This document shows positions 7,537 to 40,718 of a stretch of 64,000 nucleotides of DNA, piece after piece. Made by a program: the position numbers and the translations under genes. Origin of the DNA: Candidatus Avelusimicrobium aviculae (GTDB lineage Bacteria; Elusimicrobiota; Elusimicrobia; Elusimicrobiales; Elusimicrobiaceae); the NCBI GenBank assembly GCA_944324655.1, contig CALUXF010000007.1:880-64879 (forward strand), given 5' to 3'. Within the stretch, counting starts at the first letter, position 1, and each line of letters begins with the position of its first letter. The notes below the pieces were generated by a model. The model was given only the letters and a program-made list of their open reading frames with translations. It was not told where the DNA came from and did no database searches.

Positions 7537-7560
7537 CTTAGACCAAACAAAACGGCTTAA

Positions 7561-11911: not shown

Positions 11912-11914
11912 TAA
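11381..11914 (+). CDS. Type IV pilin (PilE-like, Elusimicrobium type)
   Basis: Class III signal KKG/FTLIELLVVVLIIGILASVAL with E5, C-terminal Cys pair, AGGAGAG RBS. Confidence 0.95.
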   Translation: MNKKGFTLIELLVVVLIIGILASVALPQYTKAVEKSRSTEAISLLSNLAKAQEIYALATNSYTNDMNALDIQMPNITGTGVVSSMQTNSFTITIRNANGADVFQATATRGGSSNAGSANYNYTIVARMARGQSLQMWCQPGTVTTVAASAPALTGTSESVRMCKSIANGNANGSIME

Positions 11915-11926
11915 GTTTTTACGGAT

Positions 11927-11956
11927 AAAAAACCCCGCCTGATGGCGGGGTTTTTT
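11927..11956 (+). terminator. Terminator after the pilin
   Basis: AAAAAACCCCGCC-TGAT-GGCGGGGTTTTTT. Confidence 0.9.
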
Positions 11957-12044
11957 ATGTCTATGCGGTGAGGCGCAGTGTAGGCAAGAACAAAAACACC
12001 ACCCCAATTTGGGGCGGTGTTTTTTGTTAGTTTAAATGCTTGGT

Positions 12045-12416
12045 TTAGTTTTGCCCGGGGGCTTTTTTGGTGTCTCCCATTTTGGCTAAATGCATATCTA
12101 CATCCAAAGAATACACCAAACAGCCTTTGGGTTGTTCTTTTAGCAGGGGAAGCAGTTCCCTGTCCATAAAACCGTTTATTTTATCGGCTTCGTCTACCAT
12201 TTCCATTACCACCGGGTATTTTTCCACCAGTTCAAAATAACGGGTGTTGCGTAAAACGCTGCTGGGGCCATAGCCCAGCATGGCGCGGCTGGCGGTAACG
12301 CCGGCTAAGCCAAAATCTTTGGCTTTTTTGGCGATGATTTCATACAGCAGTACATGGTTTATACGGTCCGTACTGCTTAAATATACTTTTAAAAGCTTCA
12401 TTTTTTTGCTTTCCAT
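12045..12416 (-). CDS. DUF190 family (PII-like) protein
   Basis: LLKVYLSSTD...LYEII...GLAGVTASRAMLGYG...PVVMEMVD pattern. Confidence 0.8.
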   Translation of the reverse strand: MESKKMKLLKVYLSSTDRINHVLLYEIIAKKAKDFGLAGVTASRAMLGYGPSSVLRNTRYFELVEKYPVVMEMVDEADKINGFMDRELLPLLKEQPKGCLVYSLDVDMHLAKMGDTKKAPGQN

Positions 12417-12548
12417 GTTAAGGCCCCCTGGGGAAGTGTCCCTTTTTGTATTATAACAGAAATTATTTTTGTTGGGGTAAGGAAGGGAAAAATTTCAAAG
12501 AAAACAAAAAACCCCAGCTTTTCCGCCGGGGTTTTGAATGTTTTGTTT

Positions 12549-14882: not shown

Positions 14883-16245
14883 CCGTTACCTCCTCTTGGG
14901 GTTCTTGGGCCCCTTGCTGGGCGGCTAAATATTTTTTTGCCCCTTCAATAATTTTAGCGGCGGTCTTTTCACCCACGCCTTGCAACGTGGCCAAGTGTTC
15001 CGGCTCTACGGAAGCGATTTTTTCTACCGTGGTGAAACCCGCTTTTTGCAGCACTTCAGCCATTTTCGGGCCGATGCCTTCCACATCCGCCAGGGCGGAT
15101 TGGATTTGCTCGCTGGCTTCTTTGCCTTCTTGGGCTTTCTGGGATTCGCTCTTGACTTCCAAATTCCAGCCGGTCAATTTGCTGGCCAGTTTAATGTTTT
15201 GCCAGTCTTTGCCGATGGCAATAGCCAGTTGGTCATCGGGCACGATGATGGTGGCTTTTTTGTCGCTCAAGCTGTCAATTTTTACATAGTTGGCTTTAGC
15301 CGGGGAAATGGCGTTCATCAGCACGGTGGAAACATCGGCGGAATAATTGATTAAATCAATGCGTTCGCCGGAAAGTTCGTTCATTACCGCGCGGATGCGT
15401 ATGCCGCGCATGCCCACGCACGTGCCGATAGGGTCAATTTTGTGGTCAATGCTGGAAACCAGCACCTTGGCGCGGAAGCCAGGGTCTCTTTGAATATTTT
15501 TGATTTCCACAATGCCTTCATTAATTTCCGGCACTTCCACTTTAAACAGTTCTTCCATAAACTGCGGGCTGGTGCGGGATAAAATGATGTACGGCCCGCG
15601 CTGGCCTTTATCCATTTTAAAAGCGGCGGATTTATAGCGGGAAAGCACCGGGTCGTCCCCCACGTTGGCCAGGTCCGTCTGGCTGAGCACTTTGGCGATA
15701 ATGGCTTTTACGCGGGAACCGTTTACATAACGTTCTTTTTTAATTTGTTCGCAATACGGCAGTATGGCTTCCACTTTGCCCAGGTCTACAATAATATCCC
15801 GGTCGGAAAAGCGGCGTACGGAACCGGTAATCACTTCGCCTTCGCGGGGTTTGTATTCTTTGTAGAAATTTTCGCGCTCAATGCCGCGTACTTTTTGAAT
15901 TAACACCTGCTTGGCGATTTGCGCCGCAATGCGGGAGAAGTCTTCCACGTCCAGCGTGTTGGTTACGATATCGCCCGCTTTAGGGTGTTTGATATAAGCT
16001 TTGGCTTGTTCCAAATCAATTTCCGTTTCCGGGTTGGTTACGGTTTCCACCACGTTTAAGGTTTGAAAAGCTTTGATGGAGCCGGCTTCGGTATCAATTT
16101 TGGCGCTTATCTGCGCGGTTTTGCCCAAGTTTTTGCGCAGGGCGGAAACCAGGGCGTCCTCAATCGTTTTTAAAATGTCTTCGCGTTTGATGTTTTTTTC
16201 TCTTTCCAGGCCTTCTAATGCCATGACTAAATCTTTTGCTTCCAT
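14857..16245 (-). CDS. nusA: Transcription factor NusA
   Basis: RIAAQIAKQV, S1 and KH domains, RDPGFRAK, C-terminal HhH. Confidence 0.97.
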   Translation of the reverse strand: MEAKDLVMALEGLEREKNIKREDILKTIEDALVSALRKNLGKTAQISAKIDTEAGSIKAFQTLNVVETVTNPETEIDLEQAKAYIKHPKAGDIVTNTLDVEDFSRIAAQIAKQVLIQKVRGIERENFYKEYKPREGEVITGSVRRFSDRDIIVDLGKVEAILPYCEQIKKERYVNGSRVKAIIAKVLSQTDLANVGDDPVLSRYKSAAFKMDKGQRGPYIILSRTSPQFMEELFKVEVPEINEGIVEIKNIQRDPGFRAKVLVSSIDHKIDPIGTCVGMRGIRIRAVMNELSGERIDLINYSADVSTVLMNAISPAKANYVKIDSLSDKKATIIVPDDQLAIAIGKDWQNIKLASKLTGWNLEVKSESQKAQEGKEASEQIQSALADVEGIGPKMAEVLQKAGFTTVEKIASVEPEHLATLQGVGEKTAAKIIEGAKKYLAAQQGAQEPQEEVTDDHSEEAN

Positions 16246-29444: not shown

Positions 29445-29743
29445 AAACTCCTCTTTACAGTTTTAGTTTAAATATATTCCCATTATAGCAATTCTTTAAA
29501 ATACTGGAAAATTTATTATACCGCTTAGAAAAGCAGTCCCTTTTTTGTAGGTTTAGTTTTCTTGACCCTTATGGGGTTATTTGGTAGACTTTAAAAAATA
29601 AATTCCTCTTGGATTTTACGAGGGATTTTATTTGTTGTTGATCATTTTTTTGTACTATCCAAATTTTTGCCGGCAGCAAGTTTTTGCTAAAGGGCAGAGC
29701 AACCTTTTTACCCTGTCTGCCGGGAGCTAAGGGGTTTGTTCTT

Positions 29744-30520
29744 ATGAAAGTTGCTATTCTTGCCGGGGGTCTTGGCACCCGTTTAAGCGAAGAAACCGAA
29801 TTGAAACCTAAACCGATGGTGGAAATCGGCGGTTATCCCATCTTATGGCATATCATGAAAATCTATTCCGCTTACGGATACAATGATTTTGTGATTCTTA
29901 CCGGTTATAAATCCCACGTTATTAAAGATTTCTTTGTAAATTATTATCAGCGTTATTCTGACATTACCATAGATATGGTGCATAATGCCGTGCAGGTGCA
30001 TAAGACCCGCCATGAACCGTGGACGGTTACCATGCTTTATACCGGCCAGGATACCATGACCGGCGGGCGCATCAAACGGGCGCAGGAATACTTGGGCAAA
30101 GAACCGTTTATGCTTACTTACGGGGACGGCGTGAGCGACATTAATATTCCCGCGCTTTTGGAGTCCCATAAAGCCAGCGGGAAAACCGTCACCATGACGG
30201 CGGTGAAACCCTTGGGCCGCTTCGGCGCTTTGCGGCTGGACGGGGAGGACAACATCACCTCTTTTATGGAAAAACCGCAAGGGGACGGCGCTTGGATTAA
30301 CGGCGGCTTTTTTGTGTGCGAGCCGGAAGTTTTTGATTTTATACCAAAAGGGGATAACGTTATTTTTGAACGCGCCCCCTTGGAAAATTTAGCTTCCAGC
30401 GGCAAGCTGCACGCTTATAAACACACCGGTTTTTGGCGCCCCATGGATACCTTGCGTGACAAAAATGACCTTACCGCCCTTTGGAAAGAGGGCAAAGCCC
30501 CTTGGAAGATTTGGAAGTAG
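29744..30520 (+). CDS. rfbF: Glucose-1-phosphate cytidylyltransferase
   Basis: ILAGGLGTRLSEET..KPKPMVEIG, LTYGDG, FWRPMDTLRD; start moved to ATG 29744. Confidence 0.96.
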   Translation: MKVAILAGGLGTRLSEETELKPKPMVEIGGYPILWHIMKIYSAYGYNDFVILTGYKSHVIKDFFVNYYQRYSDITIDMVHNAVQVHKTRHEPWTVTMLYTGQDTMTGGRIKRAQEYLGKEPFMLTYGDGVSDINIPALLESHKASGKTVTMTAVKPLGRFGALRLDGEDNITSFMEKPQGDGAWINGGFFVCEPEVFDFIPKGDNVIFERAPLENLASSGKLHAYKHTGFWRPMDTLRDKNDLTALWKEGKAPWKIWK

Positions 30521-30523
30521 CCT

Positions 30524-31591
30524 ATGTTCAACCATATTTATAAAGGCCGCCGGGTGCTGGTTACCGGGCATACGGGTTTTAAGGGAAGCTGGCTCTGCGT
30601 TTGGCTGAAGCGCTTAGGGGCAGAAGTATGCGGCTATGCCTTGGCTCCGGAAACAGAACCCGCTTTGTTTCATGTGCTTCGCGGGCAAGAAGGCATCAGC
30701 CACCATATAGGGGATTTGTTGGACGCCGAACATTTACATAAAACGGTAAAAGATTTTCAGCCAGAAATTATTTTTCATTTAGCCGCCCAGCCTTTGGTAC
30801 GCCTCTCTTACGCGGAGCCGGTGCGCACCTATGCCGTTAACGTAATGGGCACGCTAAACGTGTTGGAAGCCGCCCGCGCCGTGCCTAGCGTGCGGGCTTT
30901 TGTAAATGTTACTACCGATAAATGCTACGAAAATAAAGAAACCGCCCGCGGATACAAAGAAGATGACCCCATGGGTGGGTATGATATGTATTCTTCTTCC
31001 AAAGGATGTGTGGAAATTTTGTCCGCCTCATACCGCCGTTCTTTTTTGCAGGAAAGCGGGTTTGCCTTGGCTACGGCCCGGGCGGGAAACGTGATTGGCG
31101 GGGGGGACTGGGCGGCTGAGCGGCTTGTGCCGGATTGCATGCGCGCGTTGAATGCGGGAAAAGAAATTGAAATCCGCTGCCCGAGTGCCGTCCGCCCTTG
31201 GCAGCACGTGCTGGAGCCGCTGTCCGGCTATTTGCTTTTAGGGCAAAAACTCTTGGAAGAAGGCAGGGCTTATGCGGAAGGGTTTAATTTCGGCCCGGAT
31301 GAAAAAAGCGTGTTTACAGTGGGGGAAATGGCCCGGCTGGCCGTAAAATGCTATGGGCAAGGTTCCGTGCGGGTACAGCGCAGGGATAATTTGCATGAAG
31401 CCACTTTGCTTACGCTGGATATTACCAAAGCGCGCAAGCGGCTTGGCTGGATACCCACTTACACGGCAACGCAGGCCGTAGCCGCCGCGGTGGAATGGTA
31501 TAAACGGTTTTACGCCGGGGAAGAAATGTTGCCTTTTACTGAAGAGCAAATTAAAAATTTTGAAGGAAGTTTAGCATGGAAAAAGAATTAA
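30524..31591 (+). CDS. rfbG: CDP-glucose 4,6-dehydratase
   Basis: TGHTGFKGSWL, HLAAQPLV, TTDKCY, YSSSK, RPWQHVLEPL. Confidence 0.96.
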   Translation: MFNHIYKGRRVLVTGHTGFKGSWLCVWLKRLGAEVCGYALAPETEPALFHVLRGQEGISHHIGDLLDAEHLHKTVKDFQPEIIFHLAAQPLVRLSYAEPVRTYAVNVMGTLNVLEAARAVPSVRAFVNVTTDKCYENKETARGYKEDDPMGGYDMYSSSKGCVEILSASYRRSFLQESGFALATARAGNVIGGGDWAAERLVPDCMRALNAGKEIEIRCPSAVRPWQHVLEPLSGYLLLGQKLLEEGRAYAEGFNFGPDEKSVFTVGEMARLAVKCYGQGSVRVQRRDNLHEATLLTLDITKARKRLGWIPTYTATQAVAAAVEWYKRFYAGEEMLPFTEEQIKNFEGSLAWKKN

Positions 31592-32928
31592 GAAAAGCCG
31601 TACAAGACGCGGCCCGCGCCTATTACCGCGCCGTTTACGGGGACCCGAAAGCGTTAACCTATATTCCCGCCTCCGGCAAATTGTTGGACGAAGACGACCT
31701 GGCCGGCATGATAGACGCCAGCTTGGATATGTGGCTTACTTCCGGGCGTTTTAATGACCAGTTTGAAAAAGACTTTGCCCAGTATTTAGGGGTTCCGTTT
31801 GCTTTGTCCACCAATTCGGGTTCTTCCGCCAATTTGTTGGCGATTAGCGCGCTTACTTCGCATAAGCTGGGGGAAAGACGCCTTAAAAAAGGCGATGAGG
31901 TGATCACCGTAGCGGCGGGGTTTCCCACCACGGTAAACCCGATTATCCAGCAGGGGTTAGTGCCGGTGTTTGTGGATTGTGAAATAGGCACGTATAATAT
32001 AGACGCTTCCCAGATAGAAGCCGCTCTTTCCCCAAAAACCAAAGCCGTTTTTATCGCCCATACGCTGGGAAATATGTTTGATTTGCAAACCGTTTTGGAT
32101 GTTTGCCAAAAACATAATTTATGGCTGATTGAAGATTCCTGCGACGCGCTTGGCGCCCAATGGAACGGCAAAAAAGCGGGGACCATCGGCCATATAGGCA
32201 CATACAGCTTTTACCCGGCCCACCATATGACCATGGGCGAGGGCGGCGCCGTGGTGACCAGCGACCCGGCTTTGTACCGTATTTTGCTTTCTTTTAGAGA
32301 CTGGGGGCGGGACTGCTGGTGCAAACCGGGGGTGGATAATACCTGTAAAAACCGTTTTAACATGCAGCTTGGCAAACTGCCCTTTGGCTATGACCACAAA
32401 TATACTTATTCCCACGTGGGTTTTAACTTAAAAATTACGGACTGGCAAGCCGCTTTAGGTGTAAGCCAGTTAAAAAAACTGCCCGGTTATTTATTAAAAC
32501 GCAAACAAAACGCGGAGTTCTTGGCTGAAAAGCTGGCGGATTTAAATGAATATTTCATTTTGCCCAAAGCGGCTGAAAACGTGCGCCCGTCTTGGTTCGG
32601 GTTTTTAATTTCCGTCAGGAAAGACGCTCCTTTTACCAAGCAACAGCTGGTTGAATTTTTGGAGCAAAACGGCGTGGGAACGCGCCAGCTGTTTGCCGGC
32701 AATTTGCTGCGCCAGCCGATGATGACGGAGAACGATATCCCTCTTCGCATTAAAAATTCCGGGCTGCTTAATTCCCGCAATTTAAAAGAGAAGGACTTTG
32801 CCCTCCTCCCCAATACGGACTTTATTATGAACCACACTTTTTGGGTGGGAACGTTCCCTCGTTTGGGCAAAAAAGAGCTGGAAAAAACAGCCGCTTTAAT
32901 CCATCGGTTTGCCGGAGCGCTGAAATGA
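31576..32928 (+). CDS. rfbH: CDP-4-keto-6-deoxyglucose 3-dehydrase (E1, DdhC)
   Basis: DMWLTSGRF, SFYPAHHMTMGEGG (His in place of the PLP Lys), GRDCWCKPGVDNTC, YDHKY. Confidence 0.95.
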   Translation: MEKELRKAVQDAARAYYRAVYGDPKALTYIPASGKLLDEDDLAGMIDASLDMWLTSGRFNDQFEKDFAQYLGVPFALSTNSGSSANLLAISALTSHKLGERRLKKGDEVITVAAGFPTTVNPIIQQGLVPVFVDCEIGTYNIDASQIEAALSPKTKAVFIAHTLGNMFDLQTVLDVCQKHNLWLIEDSCDALGAQWNGKKAGTIGHIGTYSFYPAHHMTMGEGGAVVTSDPALYRILLSFRDWGRDCWCKPGVDNTCKNRFNMQLGKLPFGYDHKYTYSHVGFNLKITDWQAALGVSQLKKLPGYLLKRKQNAEFLAEKLADLNEYFILPKAAENVRPSWFGFLISVRKDAPFTKQQLVEFLEQNGVGTRQLFAGNLLRQPMMTENDIPLRIKNSGLLNSRNLKEKDFALLPNTDFIMNHTFWVGTFPRLGKKELEKTAALIHRFAGALK

Positions 32929-33809
32929 AAAAAATCCTGCTTACGGGCGGCAACGGTTTTATAGGCAAAAACATACAAGAAAGCTATTTGAGCCAAAAGT
33001 ATGAAATTACCGCCCCGCGCAGTTTTGAGTTAGACTTAACGGATACGGACGCGGTGGACGCGTATTTTTCCGCGCATCAGTTTGACGTTGTCCTCCACGC
33101 CGCCGCCAAGCCCGGCCACCGCAACGCCAAGGACCCTTCCAACCTGTTTTACACCAATGTAAGAATGTTTGAAAATTTGGTGCGTAACAAAAGCCGTTTT
33201 GGCAAGCTGATTCATTTTGGTTCCGGCGCGGTGTATGACGCTTCGGCCGATAACCGCCGGGTAAAAGAAAGCCAAATCGGCCTGCGCATGGGAAAAGACG
33301 AGCACAGCTTTTGCACGTATGTAGTGCATAAGCAAATAGAACATTTGGATCATTTTGTGGATTTAAATATTTTTGGCATTTTTGGCAAATATGAGGACTG
33401 GCAAATACGCTTTATTTCTAACGCCATTTGCAAAACATTGTTTGGCTTGCCTATCACGCTGCGCCAAAACCGCCGTTTTAGTTATTTGTACGTAAATGAT
33501 TTAATGCCCGTTTTGGAGTATTTTATAGAAAACACTGCCCGTTATAAAAGCTATAACGTGGTGCCGGACGAGGAAACCGAGCTTCTATCCGCCGCCCAAA
33601 CGGTGGCCGAGGTAAGCGGCACTCAAAGTGGCATACAGGTGGCAAAAGAAGGGTATGGCTTAAATTACAGCGGGGATAACGCGCGGCTGAGGGAGGAGAT
33701 ACCCTCTTTGCGCTTTACCCCATTCACGCAGGCCGTACGGGAATTATACCGCTGGTACGCGGATAATAAAACCATGCTAAACAAAGAATTTTTATTGAGG
33801 GATAAATGA
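32925..33809 (+). CDS. NAD-dependent epimerase/dehydratase (extended SDR)
   Basis: TGGNGFIG, FGSGAVY, IFGIFG; start moved to ATG 32925. Confidence 0.88.
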   Translation: MKKILLTGGNGFIGKNIQESYLSQKYEITAPRSFELDLTDTDAVDAYFSAHQFDVVLHAAAKPGHRNAKDPSNLFYTNVRMFENLVRNKSRFGKLIHFGSGAVYDASADNRRVKESQIGLRMGKDEHSFCTYVVHKQIEHLDHFVDLNIFGIFGKYEDWQIRFISNAICKTLFGLPITLRQNRRFSYLYVNDLMPVLEYFIENTARYKSYNVVPDEETELLSAAQTVAEVSGTQSGIQVAKEGYGLNYSGDNARLREEIPSLRFTPFTQAVRELYRWYADNKTMLNKEFLLRDK

Positions 33810-33819
33810 AGGAGAATCT

Positions 33820-34635
33820 ATGAACGCGTTAGAAAAACAAATGCTGGAAACCTTAACAGATTTAAAACAAAATCATCATGTTTTGGGCATTAAAGCCGAG
33901 TTTGAGGCCGAAGGCACCCGTATGGAAGAAGCATTGCGGTTAAAAGAAGTGGTTACTAAAGCGGGGCTGGATTTGGTGATAAAAGTGGGCGGATGTGAAG
34001 CCATTAAAGACATGTTTGACGCGCGTGTCATAGGCGTAAAAGGCATTGTGGGGCCGATGATTGAAACCGCCTACGCCATGAGCAAATATGTAAAAGCCAC
34101 GCGTTTTGTGTTCCCGGAAGATGAAAGAAAAGAAACGGAATTTTTTGTAAACGTGGAAACAAAAACCGGGATAAAAAATTTAGACGAAATGATGGCCTTG
34201 CCGGAATTTAATGACTTGGCGGGTATTGTGCTGGGCCGTGTGGATTTAACGGGCAGCATGGGCTTAACGCGGGAAGACATTAACTCTGAGGAAGTTTTTT
34301 CCATCGCGCAGGAAGTAAGCCTTAAAATGCAAAAAGCCGGTAAAAAAATGGTAATAGGAGGGGGCGTTTCCGCCGCTTCTTTGCCGTTTTTTAAACGCTT
34401 GCCCCAAGGGGCTTTAACCAAGTTTGAAACCCGCAAAATTATTTTTGACGCGCAGTCCGCCCTGCGGGACCCTAATGCGGATAAAGGCATTTTAAAGGCC
34501 GTTGGGTTTGAACTGATGTGGCTTAAAAACAAACGGGATTTTTACGGCATGATTTTTAAAGAAGACGCCCAACGCATTGAAATGCTGGAAGCCCGCTATA
34601 AAAATTTAATTGAGCAGGCGGGGGGCCATTTATGA
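33820..34635 (+). CDS. HpcH/HpaI aldolase/citrate-lyase family protein
   Basis: KAEFEAEG, KVGGCEA, GPMIET, NVET, GRVDL. Confidence 0.8.
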   Translation: MNALEKQMLETLTDLKQNHHVLGIKAEFEAEGTRMEEALRLKEVVTKAGLDLVIKVGGCEAIKDMFDARVIGVKGIVGPMIETAYAMSKYVKATRFVFPEDERKETEFFVNVETKTGIKNLDEMMALPEFNDLAGIVLGRVDLTGSMGLTREDINSEEVFSIAQEVSLKMQKAGKKMVIGGGVSAASLPFFKRLPQGALTKFETRKIIFDAQSALRDPNADKGILKAVGFELMWLKNKRDFYGMIFKEDAQRIEMLEARYKNLIEQAGGHL

Positions 34636-35297
34636 AAACCGCTTTGATAACGGGCGCCAGCCGGGGCATAGGCAAGGCCATAAAAGCGCTTTTAGAGGAG
34701 GAGCGGGGGTTTAGCGTGTACGCCCCTTCCCGTCAGGATATGGACCTGACCCAAGAAACCTCTATTAACGCGTATTTGGCAACAATCCCCCATGGGGTGG
34801 ATGTGTTGGTTAATTGCGCCGGCGTGAACGATTTGGCCGGCTTAGAGGAAATTACAGACGAGAAAATAAACAAAATGTTGTCTGTTAATTTGTTGGCGCA
34901 GCTGCATTTAATTAAGTGGGCCGCCCCTTTTATGAAGGAAAAAAAATACGGACGGATTGTTAATTTTTCTTCTATTTGGGGGGAATTTTCCAAAACCAGA
35001 AGGCTGTTATATTCCATGGCAAAAGCGGGAATAAACGGCTTAACCCGCGCCGCGGCGGTGGAATTGGCCCCGTATAATATTTTAGTCAATGCGGTGGCTC
35101 CCGGTTTTGTAAATACGGAAATGACCTGCGTAAACAATACGCCCGAGCAAATTAAACAGATTGTGCAGCAGCTGCCCGTTAAACGTTTAGCCCAGCCTGA
35201 CGAAATAGCGCAATTAGTGGGGTTTTTAGCGTCGGAACAAAATTCTTTTATGACGGGGCAGGTATTGTATGTTGACGGAGGTTTTTCATGCGTTTAG
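34632..35297 (+). CDS. Short-chain dehydrogenase/reductase
   Basis: TGASRGIG, NCAG, YSMAK, VAPGFVNT. Confidence 0.92.
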   Translation: MKTALITGASRGIGKAIKALLEEERGFSVYAPSRQDMDLTQETSINAYLATIPHGVDVLVNCAGVNDLAGLEEITDEKINKMLSVNLLAQLHLIKWAAPFMKEKKYGRIVNFSSIWGEFSKTRRLLYSMAKAGINGLTRAAAVELAPYNILVNAVAPGFVNTEMTCVNNTPEQIKQIVQQLPVKRLAQPDEIAQLVGFLASEQNSFMTGQVLYVDGGFSCV

Positions 35298-36367
35298 AAA
35301 CTTTGCCCATACATTCCCATATACGCGATTATACGGTTCAATTAGAACCTAATCCCCGGTTTGTCCAGGATTTACTGAAAGAAGAATTGAGTTTTTGGGT
35401 AGTGGATAAAAATGTTTGGCAATTATATAAAGAGCCGCTTTTTTCTTCCGCCAAAACGGATAATTTTTACATATTAGACGCTAAAGAAGAAAACAAAACG
35501 CTGGATTGCGTATGTGAAATTTATAAAAAAATTTTAACCTTGGCTCCTAAAAGAAATTTGCATTTAATTTCCATGGGGGGCGGTATTGTACAGGACGTAA
35601 CCGGCTTTGTAGCCTCCACTTTATACCGGGGTATTCGGTGGACTTTTATCCCCACCACATTATTGGCCCAGGTGGATAGCTGCATTGGGGCAAAAACTTC
35701 TTTAAATTTTTTGCATTATAAAAATTTAATAGGTTCTTTTTACCCGCCGGACCGCGTGCGCGTATGGCCCGGGTTTGTAAATACGCTGAAAACGCTGGAT
35801 TATTATTCCGGCATTGGGGAAATGGCCAAACTGCATTTAATGGCGGGGGAAGATACCACCCAAAAATTTATCGCCAATTTACCTGCGTTGGATAAAAGAG
35901 ATGAGGCCGTATTGTTGGATTTTATATCCGCCTGTCTGCGCATTAAAAAAAGTTATATAGAAAAAGATGAGTTTGATACCGGGATACGCAATTTATTAAA
36001 CTACGGGCATTGTTTCGGGCACGCTTTAGAAAGCGCGTCTTGCTTTAAAATCCCGCATGGGCAGGCGGTGGTGCTGGGCATGCTGCTTGCCAACAGATAC
36101 GCTTCCCAAAACGGCATGCTGCAAAAACAACAGGAAGAATTTGTTAGAAAAGAAATGCTTTTGCCTATTTTAAAAATAAACGCGGGTGACCTCCCCGCCC
36201 GGCCGGAGGAAGCCGTTGCCGCCATGAAACATGATAAAAAAAATGTGGGCAAAGGGCTGGCGTTAATTATTTTAGAGGATAACTACCAGCTGCGCAAATT
36301 AACGGATGTTTCTTTAGAAAGCGCTTCTTTGTTACTGCAGCGGCTGAAAAATTTGATTTATGATTAA
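35288..36367 (+). CDS. 3-dehydroquinate synthase-like sugar-phosphate cyclase (AroB-related)
   Basis: GGGIVQD, PTTLLAQVDSCIGAKT, GEMAK, LNYGHCFGHALE. Confidence 0.88.
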   Translation: MRLETLPIHSHIRDYTVQLEPNPRFVQDLLKEELSFWVVDKNVWQLYKEPLFSSAKTDNFYILDAKEENKTLDCVCEIYKKILTLAPKRNLHLISMGGGIVQDVTGFVASTLYRGIRWTFIPTTLLAQVDSCIGAKTSLNFLHYKNLIGSFYPPDRVRVWPGFVNTLKTLDYYSGIGEMAKLHLMAGEDTTQKFIANLPALDKRDEAVLLDFISACLRIKKSYIEKDEFDTGIRNLLNYGHCFGHALESASCFKIPHGQAVVLGMLLANRYASQNGMLQKQQEEFVRKEMLLPILKINAGDLPARPEEAVAAMKHDKKNVGKGLALIILEDNYQLRKLTDVSLESASLLLQRLKNLIYD

Positions 36368-38153
36368 AACATCGGATTATTTGGTTCAAAAGTTGGAAAC
36401 GCTGGGAGTGGATACGGTTTTTATGGTGTCCGGCGGCGGCGCCATGCATTTGGACGACAGCTTTGGCAGAAGTCAAAAAATCCGCCTGATTTGCAACCAT
36501 AACGAGCAAGCCTCCTCCATGTGCGCCGAGGGCTATGCCCGCGCTAATCAAAAATTAGCGGTGGCTTGCGTTACCACCGGCCCCGGCGGACTGAACTGTT
36601 TAAACGGGGTGTTTGGCGCATGGACGGACAGCGCCCCTGTATTGTTTATTTCCGGACAGGTAAAATACACCACCACCACGGCTTCCTGCCCGCAAGTATC
36701 TTTGCGCCAGCTGGGTGACCAGGAAGTGGACATCATCAGCGTGGTGCGCCCGCTTACCAAATACGCCCGCATGGTGACGGATCCGTATGATATTGACGCC
36801 GCCTTAGAAGAAGCCGTTTACTTTGCCGTTTCCGGCCGCCCCGGCCCCGTATGGCTGGATATACCGCTTAACGTACAGGCGGCCCTCATCAACCCTTCCC
36901 AATTAAAAAAATTTGCCGTTTCGGCGGCGGGAAATAAAGACATTTCCGCCGCTTTAGCGCAAGCGGCCCATTTGCTGCAAAACGCCAAACGCCCGCTGTT
37001 AGTGGCGGGAAACGGGATTCATTGCGCCAAGGCGCAAAAAGCGTTGCGGGCTTTTTTAGACAAAACCCACATACCCGTAACAACCACTTTTAACGGGTTT
37101 GATTTGCTCGCTTCAGAGGATCCGCTTTTTGCGGGGCGTATCGGCACCGTAGGGCAGCGCGCGGGAAACTTTGTACTGCAAAATGCCGACGTTATTTTGT
37201 TTGCGGGTACGCGCAATAATATACGCCAGGTAAGTTATAACTGGGAAAATTTTGCTAAAAACGCTAAAAAAATAGTGGTGGATATAGACCCGGCCGAACT
37301 GCAAAAGCCTACCGTCCATCCGGATGTGGCCTTATGCGCGGACGTGGGGCAAGTGCTCTCTTCTTTAACAGAGCAATTAACGGGGCCGCTTGCCGTTGAG
37401 CCTTGGAGGGAGTATTGCCGCCAAATGAAGGCCAAATACCCGCCTCTGCGGGAGTTTTCTATCCAAGGGCAAGACAAAGTGCACCCCTATTTGTTTATGC
37501 AGCGGCTGAGCCGTATTTTGCCGGAAAATGCCAGGGTGGTTGCTTCCAACGGGACGGCGTGCGTGGCGTTTTTCCAAGCGTTTGAGTCCAAAGAAGGCCA
37601 GCGGCTGTTGTTAAACTCGGGCGATGCTTCTATGGGTTACGGCCTGCCGGCGGCCATAGGCGTATGCGCGGCGGAGAAAAACGCTCCGGTTGTTTGCTTG
37701 GAGGGGGACGGCAGCCTGATGATGAATTTGCAGGAATTGCAAACTTTAAAGACCAATCAGCTGCCCGTTAAATTGTTTGTGATTAAAAATGGGGAGTATA
37801 TTTCCATTATTCAAACCCAGCGCAACTTTTTTGAAGGCCGTTTAACCGCCTGTAATAAAGACAGCGGGGTGGAAGTTCCGGATTTTGTAAAAGTGGCCCA
37901 AGCGTTTGGTTTACCCGCCGTACGTATTGTTAAAAATGACGAACTGGCGGATAAAATAAAGGAAGTGTTAAACACCCCGGGCCCGGTAGTTTGTGAGTTG
38001 GAGTGTACGGAAAATTATACCTTTGCGCCCAAGCTTTCCGCCCGCAAGCTGGAAGACGCAAGCATGGTCAGCCCGTCGCTGGAAGATATGTTCCCGTTTT
38101 TGGAGCGTGAGGAACTGGCGGAAAATATGTCCATCTCCCGGAAAGAAAAATAA
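36360..38153 (+). CDS. ThDP-dependent enzyme (acetolactate synthase/YerE-like)
   Basis: HNEQAS, TTGPGG, GPVWLDIP, MGYGLPAAIG, GDGSLMMNLQEL. Confidence 0.92.
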   Translation: MIKTSDYLVQKLETLGVDTVFMVSGGGAMHLDDSFGRSQKIRLICNHNEQASSMCAEGYARANQKLAVACVTTGPGGLNCLNGVFGAWTDSAPVLFISGQVKYTTTTASCPQVSLRQLGDQEVDIISVVRPLTKYARMVTDPYDIDAALEEAVYFAVSGRPGPVWLDIPLNVQAALINPSQLKKFAVSAAGNKDISAALAQAAHLLQNAKRPLLVAGNGIHCAKAQKALRAFLDKTHIPVTTTFNGFDLLASEDPLFAGRIGTVGQRAGNFVLQNADVILFAGTRNNIRQVSYNWENFAKNAKKIVVDIDPAELQKPTVHPDVALCADVGQVLSSLTEQLTGPLAVEPWREYCRQMKAKYPPLREFSIQGQDKVHPYLFMQRLSRILPENARVVASNGTACVAFFQAFESKEGQRLLLNSGDASMGYGLPAAIGVCAAEKNAPVVCLEGDGSLMMNLQELQTLKTNQLPVKLFVIKNGEYISIIQTQRNFFEGRLTACNKDSGVEVPDFVKVAQAFGLPAVRIVKNDELADKIKEVLNTPGPVVCELECTENYTFAPKLSARKLEDASMVSPSLEDMFPFLEREELAENMSISRKEK

Positions 38154-38168
38154 ACTTTTGGGGCTCAA

Positions 38169-38591
38169 ATGAATTATTTTAAACAATTTTTTAACTGCTT
38201 AATAAATTTTATACACCGCTTAACGGGGTTATCCGTCCGATTCATTACGTTTTTGTTTGTAGGGGTTTTAAATACGGCGGTTGGCTATGGGCTGTATGTA
38301 TTTTTTGTATGGCTTGGTTTTAATTATATCTGGGCTCCTTTTTGTTCCACGGTATTGGGGGTGCTTTTTAATTTTAAAACCATAGGCGGCATTGTGTTTA
38401 AAAGCCATGATAACCGCTTGATTTTTAAGTTCTTTGGCGTATATGCTATTGTATACATATGTAATGTATCGGGGCTTAAGGCGCTTGCTTGGTGCGGAAT
38501 AGAAAATTTATATATATCCGGCGCCATATTGGTTTTGCCTTTGGCCTTTTTAGGTTTTTTTCTAAACAAAAAATGGGTGTTTAACAAGTAA
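38169..38591 (+). CDS. gtrA: GtrA family flippase
   Basis: RFITFLFVGVLNTAV, four TM helices, FLNKKWVF. Confidence 0.9.
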   Translation: MNYFKQFFNCLINFIHRLTGLSVRFITFLFVGVLNTAVGYGLYVFFVWLGFNYIWAPFCSTVLGVLFNFKTIGGIVFKSHDNRLIFKFFGVYAIVYICNVSGLKALAWCGIENLYISGAILVLPLAFLGFFLNKKWVFNK

Positions 38592-38592
38592 T

Positions 38593-39534
38593 ATGAAAAA
38601 GAAAATATCAATTATTTCCAGCGCATATAATGAAGAAGAAAATATCCGCGAGTTATACGAGCAGGTAAAAAGCCAAATGGCTTTGCTGGCGGATAAATAT
38701 GACTATGAGCAAATTGTGCTGGACAATGCCTCTACGGACAACACCTTAACTGAGCTGCGCAAAGTAGCCGCGCAAGACCCGCGTTTTAAGGTGATTGTGA
38801 ACGCGCGTAATTTTGGGCATATCCGTTCCCCTTATTATGGTATTTTACAGTGCCAGGGGGACGCGGTTATCTATTTGGCTTCTGATTTGCAAGACCCGCC
38901 TTCCCTTATTCCACAGTTTCTATCCAAATGGGAGGAGGGGTATAAAGTGGTTTTGGCGCAGAAAAACCAAAGTAAAGAGTCTTGGCTCTTTTTTGCCGTG
39001 CGCCGGCTGTATTATTGGTTGCTTAATTTGGTAAATGATTCCGGCGCCCACTTGCTTTCTAATTGCACCGGTTTTGGTTTATATGATAAATGCGTGGTGG
39101 CTGAATTGCGCAAGTTGGACGAACCCTACCCGTATTTAAGGGGTCTGGTATGTGAGTTGGGGTATTCTCTTGCGTTAGTCCCTTTTGTTCAGCCGGTGCG
39201 CAAACGCGGTATTACCAAAAATAATTTTTATGCATTGTACGATAATGCTATGACGGGTTTTACCAATCATTCCAAAGTGCCTTTGCGTTTGGCCGCTTTG
39301 GGTGGGTTTATATTGGGTATGATTAGCTTTGTTTTGGCGTTGGTCTATTTGGTATTAAAGCTGTTGTATTGGGATTATTTCCCCATGGGCACGGCGCCTA
39401 TTTTATTGGCGGTATTGTTTTTCTCTTCCGTGCAGTTGTTTTTTATTGGAATTATTGGGGAATACATTGGCGCTATTCTTACCCAGGTGCTAAAACGCCC
39501 GCTTGTGATAGAAAAGGAAAGAATTAATTTTTAG
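38593..39534 (+). CDS. GtrB-like polyprenol-phosphate glycosyltransferase (GT2)
   Basis: AYNEEENI, DNASTD, RNFG, SDLQDPP, two C-terminal TM helices, IIGEYIG...RP. Confidence 0.9.
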   Translation: MKKKISIISSAYNEEENIRELYEQVKSQMALLADKYDYEQIVLDNASTDNTLTELRKVAAQDPRFKVIVNARNFGHIRSPYYGILQCQGDAVIYLASDLQDPPSLIPQFLSKWEEGYKVVLAQKNQSKESWLFFAVRRLYYWLLNLVNDSGAHLLSNCTGFGLYDKCVVAELRKLDEPYPYLRGLVCELGYSLALVPFVQPVRKRGITKNNFYALYDNAMTGFTNHSKVPLRLAALGGFILGMISFVLALVYLVLKLLYWDYFPMGTAPILLAVLFFSSVQLFFIGIIGEYIGAILTQVLKRPLVIEKERINF

Positions 39535-39583
39535 TTCTTCTTTTTTGTTTCAAGCGCTTTGCTGACAGCGCGGCTTGCATATT

Positions 39584-39617
39584 AAAAAATCCCCCGGTTT
39601 GCTCCGGGGGATTTTTT
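39584..39617. terminator. Bidirectional terminator closing the sugar cluster
   Basis: AAAAAATCCCCGG-TTTGCT-CCGGGGATTTTTT. Confidence 0.88.
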
Positions 39618-39644
39618 ATGCCAAAAACAAAACGGTTTGGGCGT

Positions 39645-40718
39645 TTATTGGGCCTTTTGTTTTAGCTGCGCCAGTCTTTGATTAATGGCTTGTTGCTGAT
39701 ATTCTTTGCTGTGGCGTTTAAGAAAATCTTGTTTCGTCGTTTCCAGTTTGTTAAGTTTCTGCCGCAGGAAATCAATTTCTTTCTGCGGAAAGCCTTGTTT
39801 TTGCGCTTCTTCTATGTTAGCTTTTGTAAAATTGATGTGTTTTTGTATGAGGACCTTTATCAAAGGATAGCGCGAAAAAGGAATCATTTTATTAACAGAA
39901 GCCATTTCCTGTTGGGAGAATATGCTTTGTATGGCCTTTGCATCTTGTTTGATAATTTCGGCTTGTACTTCAGTGGCGGCTTGACGGTAAGCTGGGTCTT
40001 GCATTTTAGGATTTTGCTCCTCGCCGTAGGTCTGCGCGGCAGGAGCGGGCGGCATTTGTTCTGCCGTGTTGTTTGCGGGAATGGGGGATATTGCTTTGTA
40101 TTCGGTCGCGTTAGAAGCGGAAGCTTTTTCTCTTTGTTTTTTTAATTCTTCTAGTAAACTTGTTTCCCTCTCGGTGCCCAGGGGCACGTATAATTGGGCG
40201 GAGGGGGGCATAAAATCCGGCGGCAAGCCATCGTCGGCAGAGATGTTTGCCGGGGAAGTCGTATCCTGAGGAAATAAGACTTTCTTCTCCCGCAAAGGCG
40301 TTTCAGACTCCTCTGTTGTAGCGGCGGAAGGAGCCAGCGTTGTTGTTTGGCTTGTGTTGGATAACACATCTTCTTCTTGTAAAGGATTTACGGGAGCCGT
40401 TTGGGTTGCCGGGGCCGAAGCGTACGGTACGGACTGCGTTTTTTTAACAAACAGTTGGGGCAGGTTAAAAACTTGCCATGCTGCTCCGGTAAAAATAAAG
40501 ACCAATAGGGCTTGAATAGCGGCAAATATTAACTTAAAAGAAAAACTTGTTTGATAGCTTTTGGCATTAAATGGAAGCCAAGAACATACCAAAAACCAAG
40601 CCGCCAGCAAGGCGACGTAGAGCGTCCACAGATTCCATGGGATTTTCCCGCTTATCATCAAGTAAACATAAAAGAGATAAACAATGCTTAAAAAAATTTT
40701 AAGGGCTTTATTTTTCAT
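39645..40718 (-). CDS. Hypothetical membrane protein (three N-terminal TM helices, P/A/T-rich linker, helical C-domain)
   Basis: Hydrophobic N-terminus, low-complexity middle; no family recognised. Confidence 0.7.
   Translation of the reverse strand: MKNKALKIFLSIVYLFYVYLMISGKIPWNLWTLYVALLAAWFLVCSWLPFNAKSYQTSFSFKLIFAAIQALLVFIFTGAAWQVFNLPQLFVKKTQSVPYASAPATQTAPVNPLQEEDVLSNTSQTTTLAPSAATTEESETPLREKKVLFPQDTTSPANISADDGLPPDFMPPSAQLYVPLGTERETSLLEELKKQREKASASNATEYKAISPIPANNTAEQMPPAPAAQTYGEEQNPKMQDPAYRQAATEVQAEIIKQDAKAIQSIFSQQEMASVNKMIPFSRYPLIKVLIQKHINFTKANIEEAQKQGFPQKEIDFLRQKLNKLETTKQDFLKRHSKEYQQQAINQRLAQLKQKAQ

What the first reader, a model, noticed from the sequence alone, without database searches (positions are those of the whole stretch)
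29744..39534. CDP-3,6-dideoxyhexose pathway extended by aldolase, sugar cyclase and ThDP enzyme, feeding a GtrAB lipid-carrier module: candidate branched or carbocyclic sugar decoration system
Seen: ten tightly coupled genes: rfbF-rfbG-rfbH(E1)-epimerase-HpcH aldolase-SDR-DHQS-like-ThDP enzyme-gtrA-gtrB-like. There is no wzx, wzy, other glycosyltransferase or gtrC, and the cluster lies antisense inside the pyrH-frr gap. Established: RfbF/G/H give CDP-4-keto-3,6-dideoxyglucose; ThDP enzymes such as YerE add a C2 branch at C4 (yersiniose); DHQS-family cyclases make carbocycles from sugar phosphates; GtrA/GtrB load one sugar on undecaprenyl phosphate and flip it. Inference: the product is a higher-carbon branched or carbocyclic 3,6-dideoxy sugar (erwiniose, caryophyllose or caryose class), delivered as a single residue to a periplasmic acceptor such as LPS or possibly the pilins. 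Gtr systems normally carry glucose or similarly simple sugars, so this pairing is unusual.
Basis: partly seen in the sequence, partly recalled or inferred. Interest (0 to 1): 0.65.

Follow-up and report, generated by a model that had tools for sequence, protein, structure and literature searches.

The report
Caryophyllose-type branched-sugar island with lipid carrier
An 11-kb accessory island in a small gut Elusimicrobiaceae genome carries the same parts list as the Mycobacterium marinum caryophyllose locus, so it most likely makes a long-branched 3,6-dideoxy sugar and loads it on a lipid carrier; the pathway type is known, and only the dehydroquinate-synthase look-alike has no described job.

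Summary
The ten genes are real. They are co-directional, mostly overlapping or 1-15 bp apart, and end at a perfect hairpin. In 13 same-genus genomes pyrH and frr lie 45 bp to 1.9 kb apart; here the gap is 11.3 kb, so this is an accessory island.

The parts list matches the annotated M. marinum caryophyllose locus (GT87, DHQS-family, aldolase, ThDP enzyme, GT2, RfbF/H/G). It also fits the published aldolase + YerE-like ThDP scheme for acyl-branched sugars. The ThDP enzyme's best solved relative is JanthE, a YerE-like enzyme. The GT2's best solved relative is GtrB.

The AroB-like gene is the only one in the genome, but aroC and aroA are absent, and so is any AroB in most congeners. It belongs to an SDR-linked clade (TIGR04425) separate from housekeeping AroB, keeps every DHQS active-site residue, and has one invariant Ser-to-Cys change.

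My reading is that the aldolase, DHQS-like enzyme and SDR build an omega-deoxy 2-keto acid by eliminating a phosphate. The ThDP enzyme then grafts it onto CDP-4-keto-3,6-dideoxyglucose. GtrB/GtrA move the sugar to the outer face, and a GT-C encoded elsewhere (two GT87-like genes) finishes the transfer. Ring closure is not excluded.

This is a new member of a known kind.

The parts
29562..29590 (+). Promoter-like site in the 300-bp frr/rfbF divergent spacer
   Evidence: TTGACC-17-TAGACT with an upstream TG. This is a consensus match only, and the number of such sites in the region is not above the shuffled expectation.
29744..30520 (+). rfbF, glucose-1-phosphate cytidylyltransferase
   Evidence: TIGR02623, 400.2 bits (cut-off 300), aligned from residue 21 of the TTG-29684 ORF, so the start is ATG 29744. 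Homologues are 257-274 aa.
30524..31591 (+). rfbG, CDP-glucose 4,6-dehydratase
   Evidence: TIGR02622, 477.8 bits (cut-off 278).
31576..32928 (+). rfbH (E1), CDP-4-keto-6-deoxyglucose 3-dehydrase
   Evidence: NF011936, 672 bits. SFYPAHH (His for Lys) and the cluster motif C189-X57-C247-X-C249-X7-C257.
32925..33809 (+). Extended SDR, probably the YerF-like reductase of the branch ketone (function inferred)
   Evidence: Epimerase and RmlD_sub_bind domains; only distant matches to GDP-fucose synthase and RmlD, which are reductases. It always sits between rfbH and the aldolase in close relatives.
33820..34635 (+). HpcH/HpaI-family class II pyruvate aldolase (maker of the donor keto acid)
   Evidence: PF03328, 52.3 bits (cut-off 25); weak matches to HpaI and YfaU; 72-89% identity among the 120 best homologues. 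The same family name ('aldolase/citrate lyase family') is given to MMAR_2331.
34632..35297 (+). Classical SDR, obligate partner of the DHQS-like gene
   Evidence: adh_short_C2, 160 bits. It lies directly upstream of the DHQS-like gene in about 30 loci from many phyla.
35288..36367 (+). DHQS-like enzyme of family TIGR04425 (proposed phosphate-eliminating lyase; ring closure not excluded)
   Evidence: TIGR04425, 404.7 bits against 400; aroB model 258.6 bits, below its 305 cut-off; all 13 DHQS active-site residues are kept; the clade is split from AroB at 100/97 support. Cys132 is invariant (32/32 and 120/120), against Ser in AroB.
36360..38153 (+). YerE/JanthE-like ThDP-dependent carboligase
   Evidence: best solved relative is 8RPH at 387.6 bits, against at most 269.5 for any acetolactate synthase. 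8RPH is JanthE, a YerE-like enzyme. The GDG motif is at residue 449.
38169..38591 (+). GtrA-family small membrane protein (putative flippase of the lipid-linked sugar)
   Evidence: PF04138, 51.7 bits; four hydrophobic segments.
38593..39534 (+). GtrB-like polyprenyl-phosphate glycosyltransferase (GT2)
   Evidence: best solved relatives are Synechocystis GtrB sll0501 (160 bits) and ArnC (102 bits); two C-terminal transmembrane helices (240-258, 272-290). PgfS 180 bits, ArnC 111 bits, both below their cut-offs.
39583..39618 (.). Perfect 15-bp hairpin with A/T-rich arms, a likely bidirectional terminator that closes the operon
   Evidence: repeat I23: TAAAAAATCCCCCGG / CCGGGGGATTTTTTA with a 6-nt loop, lying between the gtrB stop (39534) and the stop of the 357-aa - strand ORF (39645).
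39645..40718 (-). 357-aa ORF inside the island: N-terminal hydrophobic segments, then a Pro/Ala/Thr/Gln-rich low-complexity region. Probably not part of the pathway.
   Evidence: no Pfam match; sequence; no homologue at E<=1e-10 over at least half its length in the 13 fetched pyrH-frr regions of same-genus genomes.

Best explanation
The island encodes a caryophyllose-type pathway for a long-branched 3,6-dideoxyhexose, plus its transfer to a polyprenyl-phosphate carrier.

Proposed steps:
1. RfbF, RfbG and RfbH (E1) convert glucose-1-phosphate to CDP-4-keto-3,6-dideoxyglucose. Electrons come from a general reductase, because no E3 gene exists.
2. In parallel, the HpcH-type aldolase condenses pyruvate with an aldose phosphate to give a DAHP-like 3-deoxy-2-ulosonate omega-phosphate. 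Erythrose-4-phosphate is the best guess for the aldose.
3. The DHQS-like enzyme uses the DHQS chemistry of transient NAD+ oxidation and beta-elimination of phosphate. Its coupled SDR reduces the resulting omega-1 ketone. The product is an omega-deoxy 2-keto acid, such as 3,7-dideoxyheptulosonate.
4. The YerE/JanthE-like ThDP enzyme decarboxylates that acid and adds it to C4 of the CDP-keto sugar. The extended SDR reduces the branch ketone.
5. The GtrB-like GT2 transfers the sugar from CDP to undecaprenyl phosphate, and GtrA flips it.
6. A GT-C enzyme encoded elsewhere puts it on an envelope acceptor. There are two GT87-like candidates.

Shown here: the gene families, the conserved synteny, the island status, the match of parts list with M. 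marinum, and that the DHQS-like gene is not a housekeeping AroB.

Inferred: every substrate, the order of steps, the non-cyclising outcome and the acceptor.
For: Families and coupling.

Parts list. [quoted passage not shown] Mutants in 2331, 2332 and 2333 lack caryophyllose (PMC9306805 and PMC5706390).

Published scheme. An aldolase makes the keto acid, a YerE-like enzyme adds it to CDP-4-keto-3,6-dideoxyglucose, and a reductase follows (PMC9306805).

ThDP enzyme. It is closest to JanthE (8RPH, 387.6 bits) rather than to acetolactate synthases (at most 269.5 bits).

Aldolase logic. One Bacillota locus replaces the HpcH aldolase with an HMGL-like domain, the Pfam family of BphI-type pyruvate aldolases (family membership from my own knowledge; ErwI is BphI-like per PMC9306805), fused to GtrA.

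DHQS-like enzyme:
- All DHQS residues are kept, including those that by my knowledge of the A. nidulans structure bind the carboxylate (K250, R264). The substrate is therefore a DAHP-like acid.
- It belongs to an SDR-linked clade separate from AroB.
- The same pair occurs beside cytidylyltransferase, SIS and aldolase genes. By established knowledge of the CTP_transf_3 family, those enzymes also need an intact 2-keto acid.
- Cys132 is invariant.

Lipid carrier. GtrB is the best solved relative. GtrB homologues sit in 10 of 17 cassette loci, with GT87, YfhO, PMT_2 or an unclassified 647-aa polytopic membrane protein beside them. The genome has two accessory GT87-like genes.

Island status.

No shikimate pathway.
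Against: - No MMAR, ErwE or YerE sequence was available, so the match to M. marinum rests on annotation and parts list, not on measured orthology.
- The DHQS-like enzyme keeps every residue of a true cyclase. By my knowledge of the DHQS literature, the enol product of DAHP cyclises to dehydroquinate spontaneously, so a linear product needs active diversion.
- At least one cassette also carries a HAD phosphatase next to the DHQS-like gene. A pure 'phosphate removed by elimination' model does not require that.
- No E3 reductase is found in the island, in relatives' cassettes or in the genome.
- No GT-C lies in the island. The 647-aa membrane protein that follows gtrB in the closest relatives has no homologue in this genome.
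- No glycan chemistry exists for this organism.
Confidence: 0.6

Rival explanations
1. The DHQS-like enzyme does close a ring. It would act on the aldolase product, or on the phosphorylated branch after ThDP coupling. The cassette would then make a sugar carrying or fused to a dehydroquinate-type carbocycle (caryose- or bradyrhizose-like chemistry), delivered through GtrAB.
For: All DHQS catalytic residues are intact. Solved DHQSs are the best structural relatives (144 bits). NCBIfam names the family a '(cyclizing)' phospholyase. By my knowledge, cyclisation of the eliminated intermediate is chemically spontaneous.
Against: A DHQ-type aldol consumes the C2 ketone that the YerE-like enzyme needs in its donor (PMC9306805). 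The same SDR + DHQS-like pair sits beside CTP_transf_3 cytidylyltransferases; by established knowledge these activate 2-keto-3-deoxy acids, and I judge that a saturated tertiary carbocycle would be a poor glycosyl donor. The conserved carboxylate-binding residues argue against action on a CDP-sugar-bound branch. M. marinum, with the same parts list, makes the acyclic caryophyllose.
Confidence: 0.15
2. Two pathways are merely co-located. RfbFGH, the ThDP enzyme and the extended SDR would make a short-branched yersiniose-type sugar from pyruvate. The aldolase, DHQS-like enzyme and SDR would make an unrelated product, such as a quinate-like compound or a separate acid sugar.
For: The SDR + DHQS-like pair is modular and occurs without ThDP or rfb genes in many loci. 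JanthE accepts pyruvate as well as longer donors.
Against: The order epi-ald-sdr-dhqs-thdp, with overlapping junctions, is kept across four phyla. The aldolase is the most conserved protein of the cassette. The M. marinum aldolase mutant loses caryophyllose. A second, free product would have no activating enzyme or transferase in the island.
Confidence: 0.1
3. The DHQS-like gene is the organism's 3-dehydroquinate synthase, with the aldolase acting as a substitute DAHP synthase for aromatic biosynthesis.
For: It is the only AroB-like gene in the genome, and it keeps the full DHQS active site.
Against: aroC is absent, and aroA gives only an 85-bit match that I take to be MurA. 20 of 24 congeners have no AroB-like gene. 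Its aroB score is below the cut-off. It falls in a clade separate from AroBs that have shikimate-gene neighbours. It lies in an accessory island.
Confidence: 0.02

Closest known systems
Caryophyllose sub-locus of the Mycobacterium marinum lipooligosaccharide cluster (MMAR_2327 to MMAR_2336)
   Same: Same parts list: RfbF, RfbG, RfbH, an aldolase/citrate-lyase-family protein, a 3-dehydroquinate-synthase-family protein, a ThDP-binding enzyme and a GT2, plus a GT87. In the window's genome the GT87-like genes lie elsewhere. Mutants of the aldolase, ThDP enzyme and GT2 lack caryophyllose.
   Different: Different phylum (Elusimicrobiota) and a different, unknown acceptor, since there are no trehalose-based LOS genes. 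A separate GtrA gene is present. The GT-C is not in the island. Orthology was not measured because the mycobacterial sequences could not be fetched.
Unifying scheme for acyl-branched sugars (Steitz et al. 2022, PMC9306805): YerE/YerF for yersiniose, ErwE/F/I/J for erwiniose, MyGE for gastriose, and the R. palustris cluster
   Same: CDP-4-keto-3,6-dideoxyglucose is the acceptor, a pyruvate aldolase makes a functionalised 2-keto acid donor, a YerE-like ThDP enzyme joins them, and a reductase follows.
   Different: That scheme gives no role to a DHQS-family enzyme or its SDR, and it does not say where the deoxy-aldehyde for the caryophyllose donor comes from. Erwiniose uses a BphI-type aldolase plus an acetaldehyde dehydrogenase instead.
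JanthE from Janthinobacterium sp. HH01 (PDB 8RPH, 8RPI, 8RPJ)
   Same: It is the best solved relative of the window's ThDP enzyme (387.6 bits over residues 2-590), and it is a YerE-like ketone-accepting carboligase.
   Different: JanthE has a CDG ThDP motif; the window's enzyme has the canonical GDG. The physiological substrates of JanthE are unknown.
3-dehydroquinate synthase AroB and the sugar phosphate cyclases (DOIS, EEVS, DDGS)
   Same: Same fold, and all 13 DHQS active-site residues are kept.
   Different: Below the aroB cut-off. Separate clade. Always paired with an SDR. Invariant Cys for Ser two residues after the D146 equivalent. No shikimate pathway in the genome. Scores against DOIS, EEVS and DDGS structures (106, 103 and 57 bits) are lower than against DHQS (144 bits).
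GtrA/GtrB/GtrC O-antigen glucosylation, and the CsbB/YfhO and ArnC/ArnT three-component systems
   Same: A GtrA-family protein plus a GtrB-type GT2 with two C-terminal transmembrane helices. In relatives a GT-C (GT87, YfhO or PMT_2) lies beside them.
   Different: The predicted donor is a CDP-linked 12-carbon branched sugar rather than UDP-glucose. No GT-C is in the island.

Membership tests
Caryophyllose-type (YerE-like) acyl-branched 3,6-dideoxyhexose cassette | The CDP-4-keto-3,6-dideoxyglucose arm: RfbF, RfbG and RfbH/E1 | tested here: met
   all three equivalog models score well above their cut-offs. E1 iron-sulfur motif and His-for-Lys.
Caryophyllose-type (YerE-like) acyl-branched 3,6-dideoxyhexose cassette | A YerE-like (ketone-accepting) ThDP carboligase rather than an acetolactate synthase | tested here: met
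   JanthE (8RPH) 387.6 bits against at most 269.5 for any ALS. All ALS equivalog models score far below their cut-offs. No tree against YerE, ErwE or MMAR_2332 was possible.
Caryophyllose-type (YerE-like) acyl-branched 3,6-dideoxyhexose cassette | A pyruvate aldolase encoded beside the ThDP enzyme | tested here: met
   PF03328, 52.3 bits against 25. NCBI calls its homologues 'aldolase/citrate lyase family', the same name as MMAR_2331.
Caryophyllose-type (YerE-like) acyl-branched 3,6-dideoxyhexose cassette | A DHQS-family gene in the locus, as MMAR_2329 is | tested here: met
   The match is at annotation level only.
Caryophyllose-type (YerE-like) acyl-branched 3,6-dideoxyhexose cassette | A YerF-like reductase of the branch ketone | tested here: inconclusive
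   the extended SDR is only distantly like GDP-fucose synthase and RmlD. No YerF sequence was available.
Caryophyllose-type (YerE-like) acyl-branched 3,6-dideoxyhexose cassette | Sequence orthology to MMAR_2329, MMAR_2331, MMAR_2332 and MMAR_2333 | not tested
Caryophyllose-type (YerE-like) acyl-branched 3,6-dideoxyhexose cassette | The branched sugar is actually present in a glycan | not testable with these tools
   Needs GC-MS and NMR of envelope material.
CDP-3,6-dideoxyhexose pathway (Yersinia/Salmonella ddh/rfb type) | A dedicated E3 reductase (plant-type [2Fe-2S] plus an FNR-like domain) partnering E1 | tested here: not met
   no ORF with both motifs in the cassette loci or the genome; the only NAD_binding_1 protein is a 289-aa ORF on another contig. 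By my knowledge, SpnQ-type 3-dehydrases work with general reductases, so this does not block the chemistry.
3-dehydroquinate synthase AroB (TIGR01357) | Score at or above the curated cut-off | tested here: not met
   258.6 bits against 305.
3-dehydroquinate synthase AroB (TIGR01357) | DHQS catalytic and substrate-binding residues | tested here: met
   the equivalents of R130, D146, K152, N162, E194, K197, K250, R264, N268, H271, H275, H287 and K356 are all present.
3-dehydroquinate synthase AroB (TIGR01357) | Works within a shikimate pathway | tested here: not met
   no aroC and no aroA; most congeners lack any AroB-like gene; separate clade.
TIGR04425 (AroB-related putative sugar phosphate phospholyase) | Score at or above the curated cut-off | tested here: met
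   404.7 bits against 400.
Sedoheptulose-7-phosphate and glucose-6-phosphate cyclases (EEVS, DDGS, DOIS) | Closer to these than to DHQS, with the DHQS carboxylate-binding residues replaced | tested here: not met
   ValA 102.6, DDGS 56.5 and DOIS 105.8 bits, against DHQS 144 bits. K250 and R264 are kept.
GtrA/GtrB/GtrC three-component glycosylation | A GtrA-family membrane protein | tested here: met
   PF04138, 51.7 bits against 26.1.
GtrA/GtrB/GtrC three-component glycosylation | A GtrB-type polyprenyl-phosphate GT2 with C-terminal membrane helices | tested here: met
   GtrB sll0501 160 bits, ArnC 102 bits; helices at 240-258 and 272-290.
GtrA/GtrB/GtrC three-component glycosylation | A GT-C transferase encoded next to gtrAB | tested here: not met
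   none in the island. Candidates lie elsewhere, at G000:C2:32876-34132 and C25:9276-10541 (GT87).
GtrA/GtrB/GtrC three-component glycosylation | UDP-glucose as donor | not testable with these tools
   Donor specificity needs an enzyme assay.

The most novel reading that the evidence does not exclude
The DHQS-like enzyme closes a ring. This widespread cassette would then make a sugar bearing or fused to a dehydroquinate-derived carbocycle, which a GtrB-like enzyme loads from a CDP donor onto undecaprenyl phosphate. That would be a first genetic route to carbocyclic bacterial sugars.

A less exotic but more likely novelty concerns the same gene pair. TIGR04425 plus its SDR may be a two-enzyme 'eliminative dephosphorylation' device that writes the methyl terminus of caryophyllose-type branches, with the invariant Cys132 diverting the enolate from the aldol ring closure. 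I put that at about 0.45.
Probability: 0.15. Interest if true: 0.8.

Novelty: new member of a known kind. Interest (0 to 1): 0.42.

Why it matters
Long-branched 12-carbon sugars such as caryophyllose are known from very few cultured bacteria, and they shape how hosts see the cell surface. This locus, and the hundreds of close homologues in gut metagenomes, suggest that uncultured gut Elusimicrobia, Gastranaerophilales and Clostridia decorate their envelopes with such sugars through a lipid-carrier route.

The cassette also points to an undescribed job for a dehydroquinate-synthase paralogue and its reductase. They may supply the terminal deoxy group of the side chain, a step the published biosynthetic scheme leaves open. 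A three-enzyme assay would test that directly.

Tried and rejected
- **Housekeeping AroB:** rejected.
- **EEVS, DDGS or DOIS-type cyclase:** rejected on PDB scores and residues.
- **IolD or CDH-type ring-cleaving ThDP enzyme:** considered. It was dropped because JanthE is by far the best solved relative.
- **The 357-aa ORF next to gtrB as the missing GT-C:** rejected. It has only N-terminal hydrophobic segments followed by low-complexity sequence, and no Pfam match.
- **Homologue of the 647-aa membrane protein that follows gtrB in the closest relatives:** none in this genome.
- **E3 reductase:** a motif scan and a PF00175 search found none.
- **Flanking direct repeats or integrase as signs of a mobile element:** no convincing repeats.
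- **Literature linking a DHQS to CDP-sugar branching:** no paper found. The supplement of PMC9306805 is not held, and Sarkar et al. 2011 is not held.
- **Active-site comparison of cyclases in the paper library:** not found, so residue roles rest on my own knowledge of the A. nidulans DHQS structure.
- **Early assumption that fetched loci were not reaching the Python box:** this was my misreading. One file holds many records.

Full report
**What is there**

Ten + strand ORFs run from 29684/29744 to 39534. Pfam and NCBIfam identify them as follows:
- RfbF: TIGR02623, 400 bits.
- RfbG: TIGR02622, 478 bits.
- RfbH/E1: NF011936, 672 bits.
- An extended SDR.
- An HpcH/HpaI aldolase: 52 bits against a cut-off of 25.
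- A classical SDR.
- A DHQS-like protein: it passes TIGR04425 ('AroB-related putative sugar phosphate phospholyase (cyclizing)', 404.7 bits against 400) but not the aroB model (258.6 bits against 305).
- A 597-aa ALS-like ThDP enzyme.
- GtrA.
- A GT2 resembling PgfS and ArnC.

RfbH has the E1 hallmarks: His in place of the PLP lysine, and C189-X57-C247-X-C249-X7-C257. Two starts need adjusting, judged from homologue lengths and model alignments: rfbF at ATG 29744 and the extended SDR at ATG 32925. Junctions range from a 16-bp overlap to a 15-bp gap. A perfect 15-bp hairpin at 39583-39618 closes the operon.

The flanks are frr, uppS, cdsA and dxr on one side, and a 357-aa ORF with no family match, pyrH, tsf and rpsB on the other. 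All of these are on the - strand.

**Genomic setting**

The window lies in a 1.62-Mb, 95%-complete genome. The closest named relative of its DHQS-like gene is an Elusimicrobiaceae MAG.

In 13 same-genus genomes pyrH and frr are 45-131 bp apart in seven, and at most 1.9 kb apart in the rest. Here they are 11.3 kb apart, so the cluster is an insertion. No flanking repeats or integrase were seen.

Another member of the genus (G019) carries the same ten genes at a different site. There they are followed by a 647-aa polytopic membrane protein and a further 377-aa ORF, as in the closely related metagenome locus L053, where the genes after the 647-aa protein are GT2s. The cassette therefore moves between sites.

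**Not an AroB**

However:
- aroC is absent, and aroA gives only an 85-bit match that I take to be MurA.
- 20 of 24 congeners have no AroB-like gene at all.
- In a maximum-likelihood tree, the DHQS-like proteins that sit next to an SDR form one side of a 100/97 branch. AroBs from loci without the SDR partner, whose neighbour families recur and which I took to be shikimate genes (not annotated), form the other side.

**A conserved cassette**

I called ORFs in 50+ related loci and compared them with the window's proteins. The block rfbF-rfbG-rfbH-SDR-aldolase-SDR-DHQS-ThDP, or a permutation of it, recurs in Elusimicrobiota, Gastranaerophilales, Bacillota and Bdellovibrionota.

The aldolase is the most conserved member, at 72-89% identity among the 120 best database hits. 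The SDR + DHQS-like pair is the invariant core.

In one Bacillota locus the HpcH aldolase is missing. A GtrA-HMGL-like fusion takes its place. The HMGL-like domain is, by my knowledge, the Pfam family of BphI-type pyruvate aldolases, and ErwI is described as BphI-like in PMC9306805. This is a non-orthologous replacement that fits 'an aldolase supplies the donor'.

**Link to known biology**

Steitz et al. 2022 (PMC9306805) showed that long-branched 3,6-dideoxy sugars (erwiniose, caryophyllose, gastriose) arise in three steps. An aldolase makes a functionalised 2-keto acid. A YerE-like ThDP enzyme adds it to CDP-4-keto-3,6-dideoxyglucose. A reductase follows.

The window's ThDP enzyme scores 387.6 bits against 8RPH and at most 269.5 against any acetolactate synthase. 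8RPH is JanthE, a YerE-like enzyme.

The RefSeq annotation of the M. marinum LOS locus, read from the supplement of PMC12395582, gives:
- MMAR_2327: GT87
[quoted passage not shown] - MMAR_2332: ThDP-binding
- MMAR_2333: GT2
- MMAR_2334: RfbF
- MMAR_2335: RfbH
- MMAR_2336: RfbG

Mutants in 2331, 2332 and 2333 lack caryophyllose. The window's island therefore has the same parts list as the one locus genetically tied to caryophyllose. I could not fetch the mycobacterial sequences, so this is a match of parts lists, not measured orthology.

**What the DHQS-like enzyme does (inference)**

All 13 DHQS active-site residues are present in every member of the SDR-linked clade. These include the two that, by my knowledge of the A. 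nidulans structure, hold the DAHP carboxylate (K250, R264). The substrate should therefore be a DAHP-like 3-deoxy-2-ulosonate phosphate, which is what pyruvate plus an aldose phosphate would give with the aldolase.

The pair occurs in two main kinds of context, and these interleave in the tree:
- with the YerE-like enzyme, as here;
- with a CTP_transf_3 cytidylyltransferase, a SIS isomerase, Gfo/Idh/MocA and 2-hydroxyacid dehydrogenases, an aminotransferase and, in Bacteroidota, an HpcH aldolase.

By established knowledge of both enzyme families (not tested here), each of these downstream enzymes needs an intact 2-keto acid. A DHQ-type aldol would consume that ketone.

I therefore favour a non-cyclising outcome: DHQS-style oxidation and phosphate elimination, followed by SDR reduction of the omega-1 ketone, giving an omega-deoxy 2-keto acid. 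For a seven-carbon substrate this is 3,7-dideoxyheptulosonate. By my derivation from the caryophyllose structure, that is the C7 donor its C6 branch requires; the published scheme instead draws that donor as pyruvate plus a deoxy-aldehyde and does not say where the aldehyde comes from.

The only position that separates the clade from AroB is Cys132 (the motif is DSC, against DSS in AroB). It is invariant in 32 of 32 locus proteins and 120 of 120 database homologues, and it lies between two substrate-binding residues. It is a candidate for diverting the enolate from ring closure, but this is speculation.

Three points count against this reading. The catalytic set of a true cyclase is intact. 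By my knowledge, cyclisation of the DAHP-derived enol is spontaneous. And one cassette also carries a HAD phosphatase.

**Delivery**

The GT2's best solved relatives are Synechocystis GtrB (160 bits) and ArnC (102 bits). It has two C-terminal membrane helices.

GtrB homologues sit in 10 of 17 cassette loci. A GT-C often lies beside them: GT87 in L011, L025 and L072; YfhO in L013; PMT_2 in L072; and an unclassified 647-aa polytopic protein in L053 and L071. M. marinum likewise has a GT2 plus a GT87.

In the window's island no GT-C is present, and the 647-aa protein has no homologue in the genome. Two GT87-like genes exist elsewhere, at G000:C2:32876-34132 and C25:9276-10541.
- The C25 gene is found in 6 of 31 genus genomes, including both genomes that carry the cassette.
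- The C2 gene is found in 2 of 31.

This co-occurrence is suggestive at best. The acceptor is unknown. Two type IV pilin-like genes lie 18 kb away, with nothing to link them to the island.

**Gaps**
- No E3 reductase is found in any cassette locus or in the genome. By my knowledge, some 3-dehydrases use general reductases.
- The role of the extended SDR is unresolved: YerF-like branch reductase, or an epimerase or 4-reductase.
- The branch length is a guess, based on how closely the DHQS-like active site resembles one built for DAHP.

**Earlier notes of this scan**

These were consulted, after I had formed the reading above. They describe the same cassette in other genomes and reach the same two readings. 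They are not independent evidence.

**Verdict**

This is a new member of a known kind. The one piece of open enzymology is the TIGR04425 enzyme and its SDR.

Noticed in passing
L017:5646-13199, L019, L048, L049 (Bacteroidota); L030:4095-11100, L026, L015, L028 (Pseudomonadota): The SDR + DHQS-like pair also sits in a second conserved context, without rfb or ThDP genes. Its neighbours there are a SIS isomerase, Gfo/Idh/MocA, a D-2-hydroxyacid dehydrogenase, a class I/II aminotransferase, a CTP_transf_3 cytidylyltransferase, an MptE-like (Maf-type) protein, DUF386/YhcH and, in Bacteroidota, an HpcH aldolase. It looks like an undescribed pathway for a CMP-activated acid sugar.
   Followed up: partly
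L070:8597-11704 (G020, same genus); L006 (G005): A third context, within the window's own genus: SDR, a divergent DHQS-like gene (32-35% identity) and an FGGY-family sugar kinase, next to Mla-type transporter genes.
   Followed up: partly
L013:5379-7475: A 698-aa fusion of a GtrA domain with an HMGL-like aldolase domain. It stands in for the HpcH aldolase in a Bacillota version of the cassette. A YfhO GT-C follows the gtrB homologue at 12171-14888.
   Followed up: partly
L076:5428-5820, 7204-7599, 11089-14069: In one metagenome cassette, two 23S_rRNA_IVP-family genes are wedged between the rfb genes, a HAD phosphatase follows the DHQS-like gene, and the ThDP enzyme is 770 aa long with a DUF559 insertion.
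   Followed up: no
window 39645-40718 (-): A 357-aa ORF inside the island with N-terminal hydrophobic segments and a long Pro/Ala/Thr/Gln-rich region. It has no family match, and no homologue at E<=1e-10 in the 13 fetched pyrH-frr regions of same-genus genomes.
   Followed up: partly
whole genome G000 and genus: The genome lacks aroC and aroA, and most congeners lack any AroB-like gene. This small-genome genus therefore appears to have no shikimate pathway.
   Followed up: partly
window 10665-11186 and 11381-11914 (+): Two type IV pilin-like genes (ComP_DUS and N_methyl motifs) lie about 18 kb from the island. Nothing links them to it.
   Followed up: no
G000:C2:32876-34132 and G000:C25:9276-10541: Two GT87-like polytopic membrane proteins, both accessory in the genus (found in 2 of 31 and 6 of 31 genomes). 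G006 has both, but shows neither a TIGR04425 hit nor an frr hit in its fragmented assembly.
   Followed up: partly
L057, L059, L060, L063, L066, L069 (pyrH-frr gaps of 0.7-1.9 kb): Some congeners have a smaller, unexamined insertion at the same pyrH-frr site. The site may be a recurrent insertion spot.
   Followed up: no
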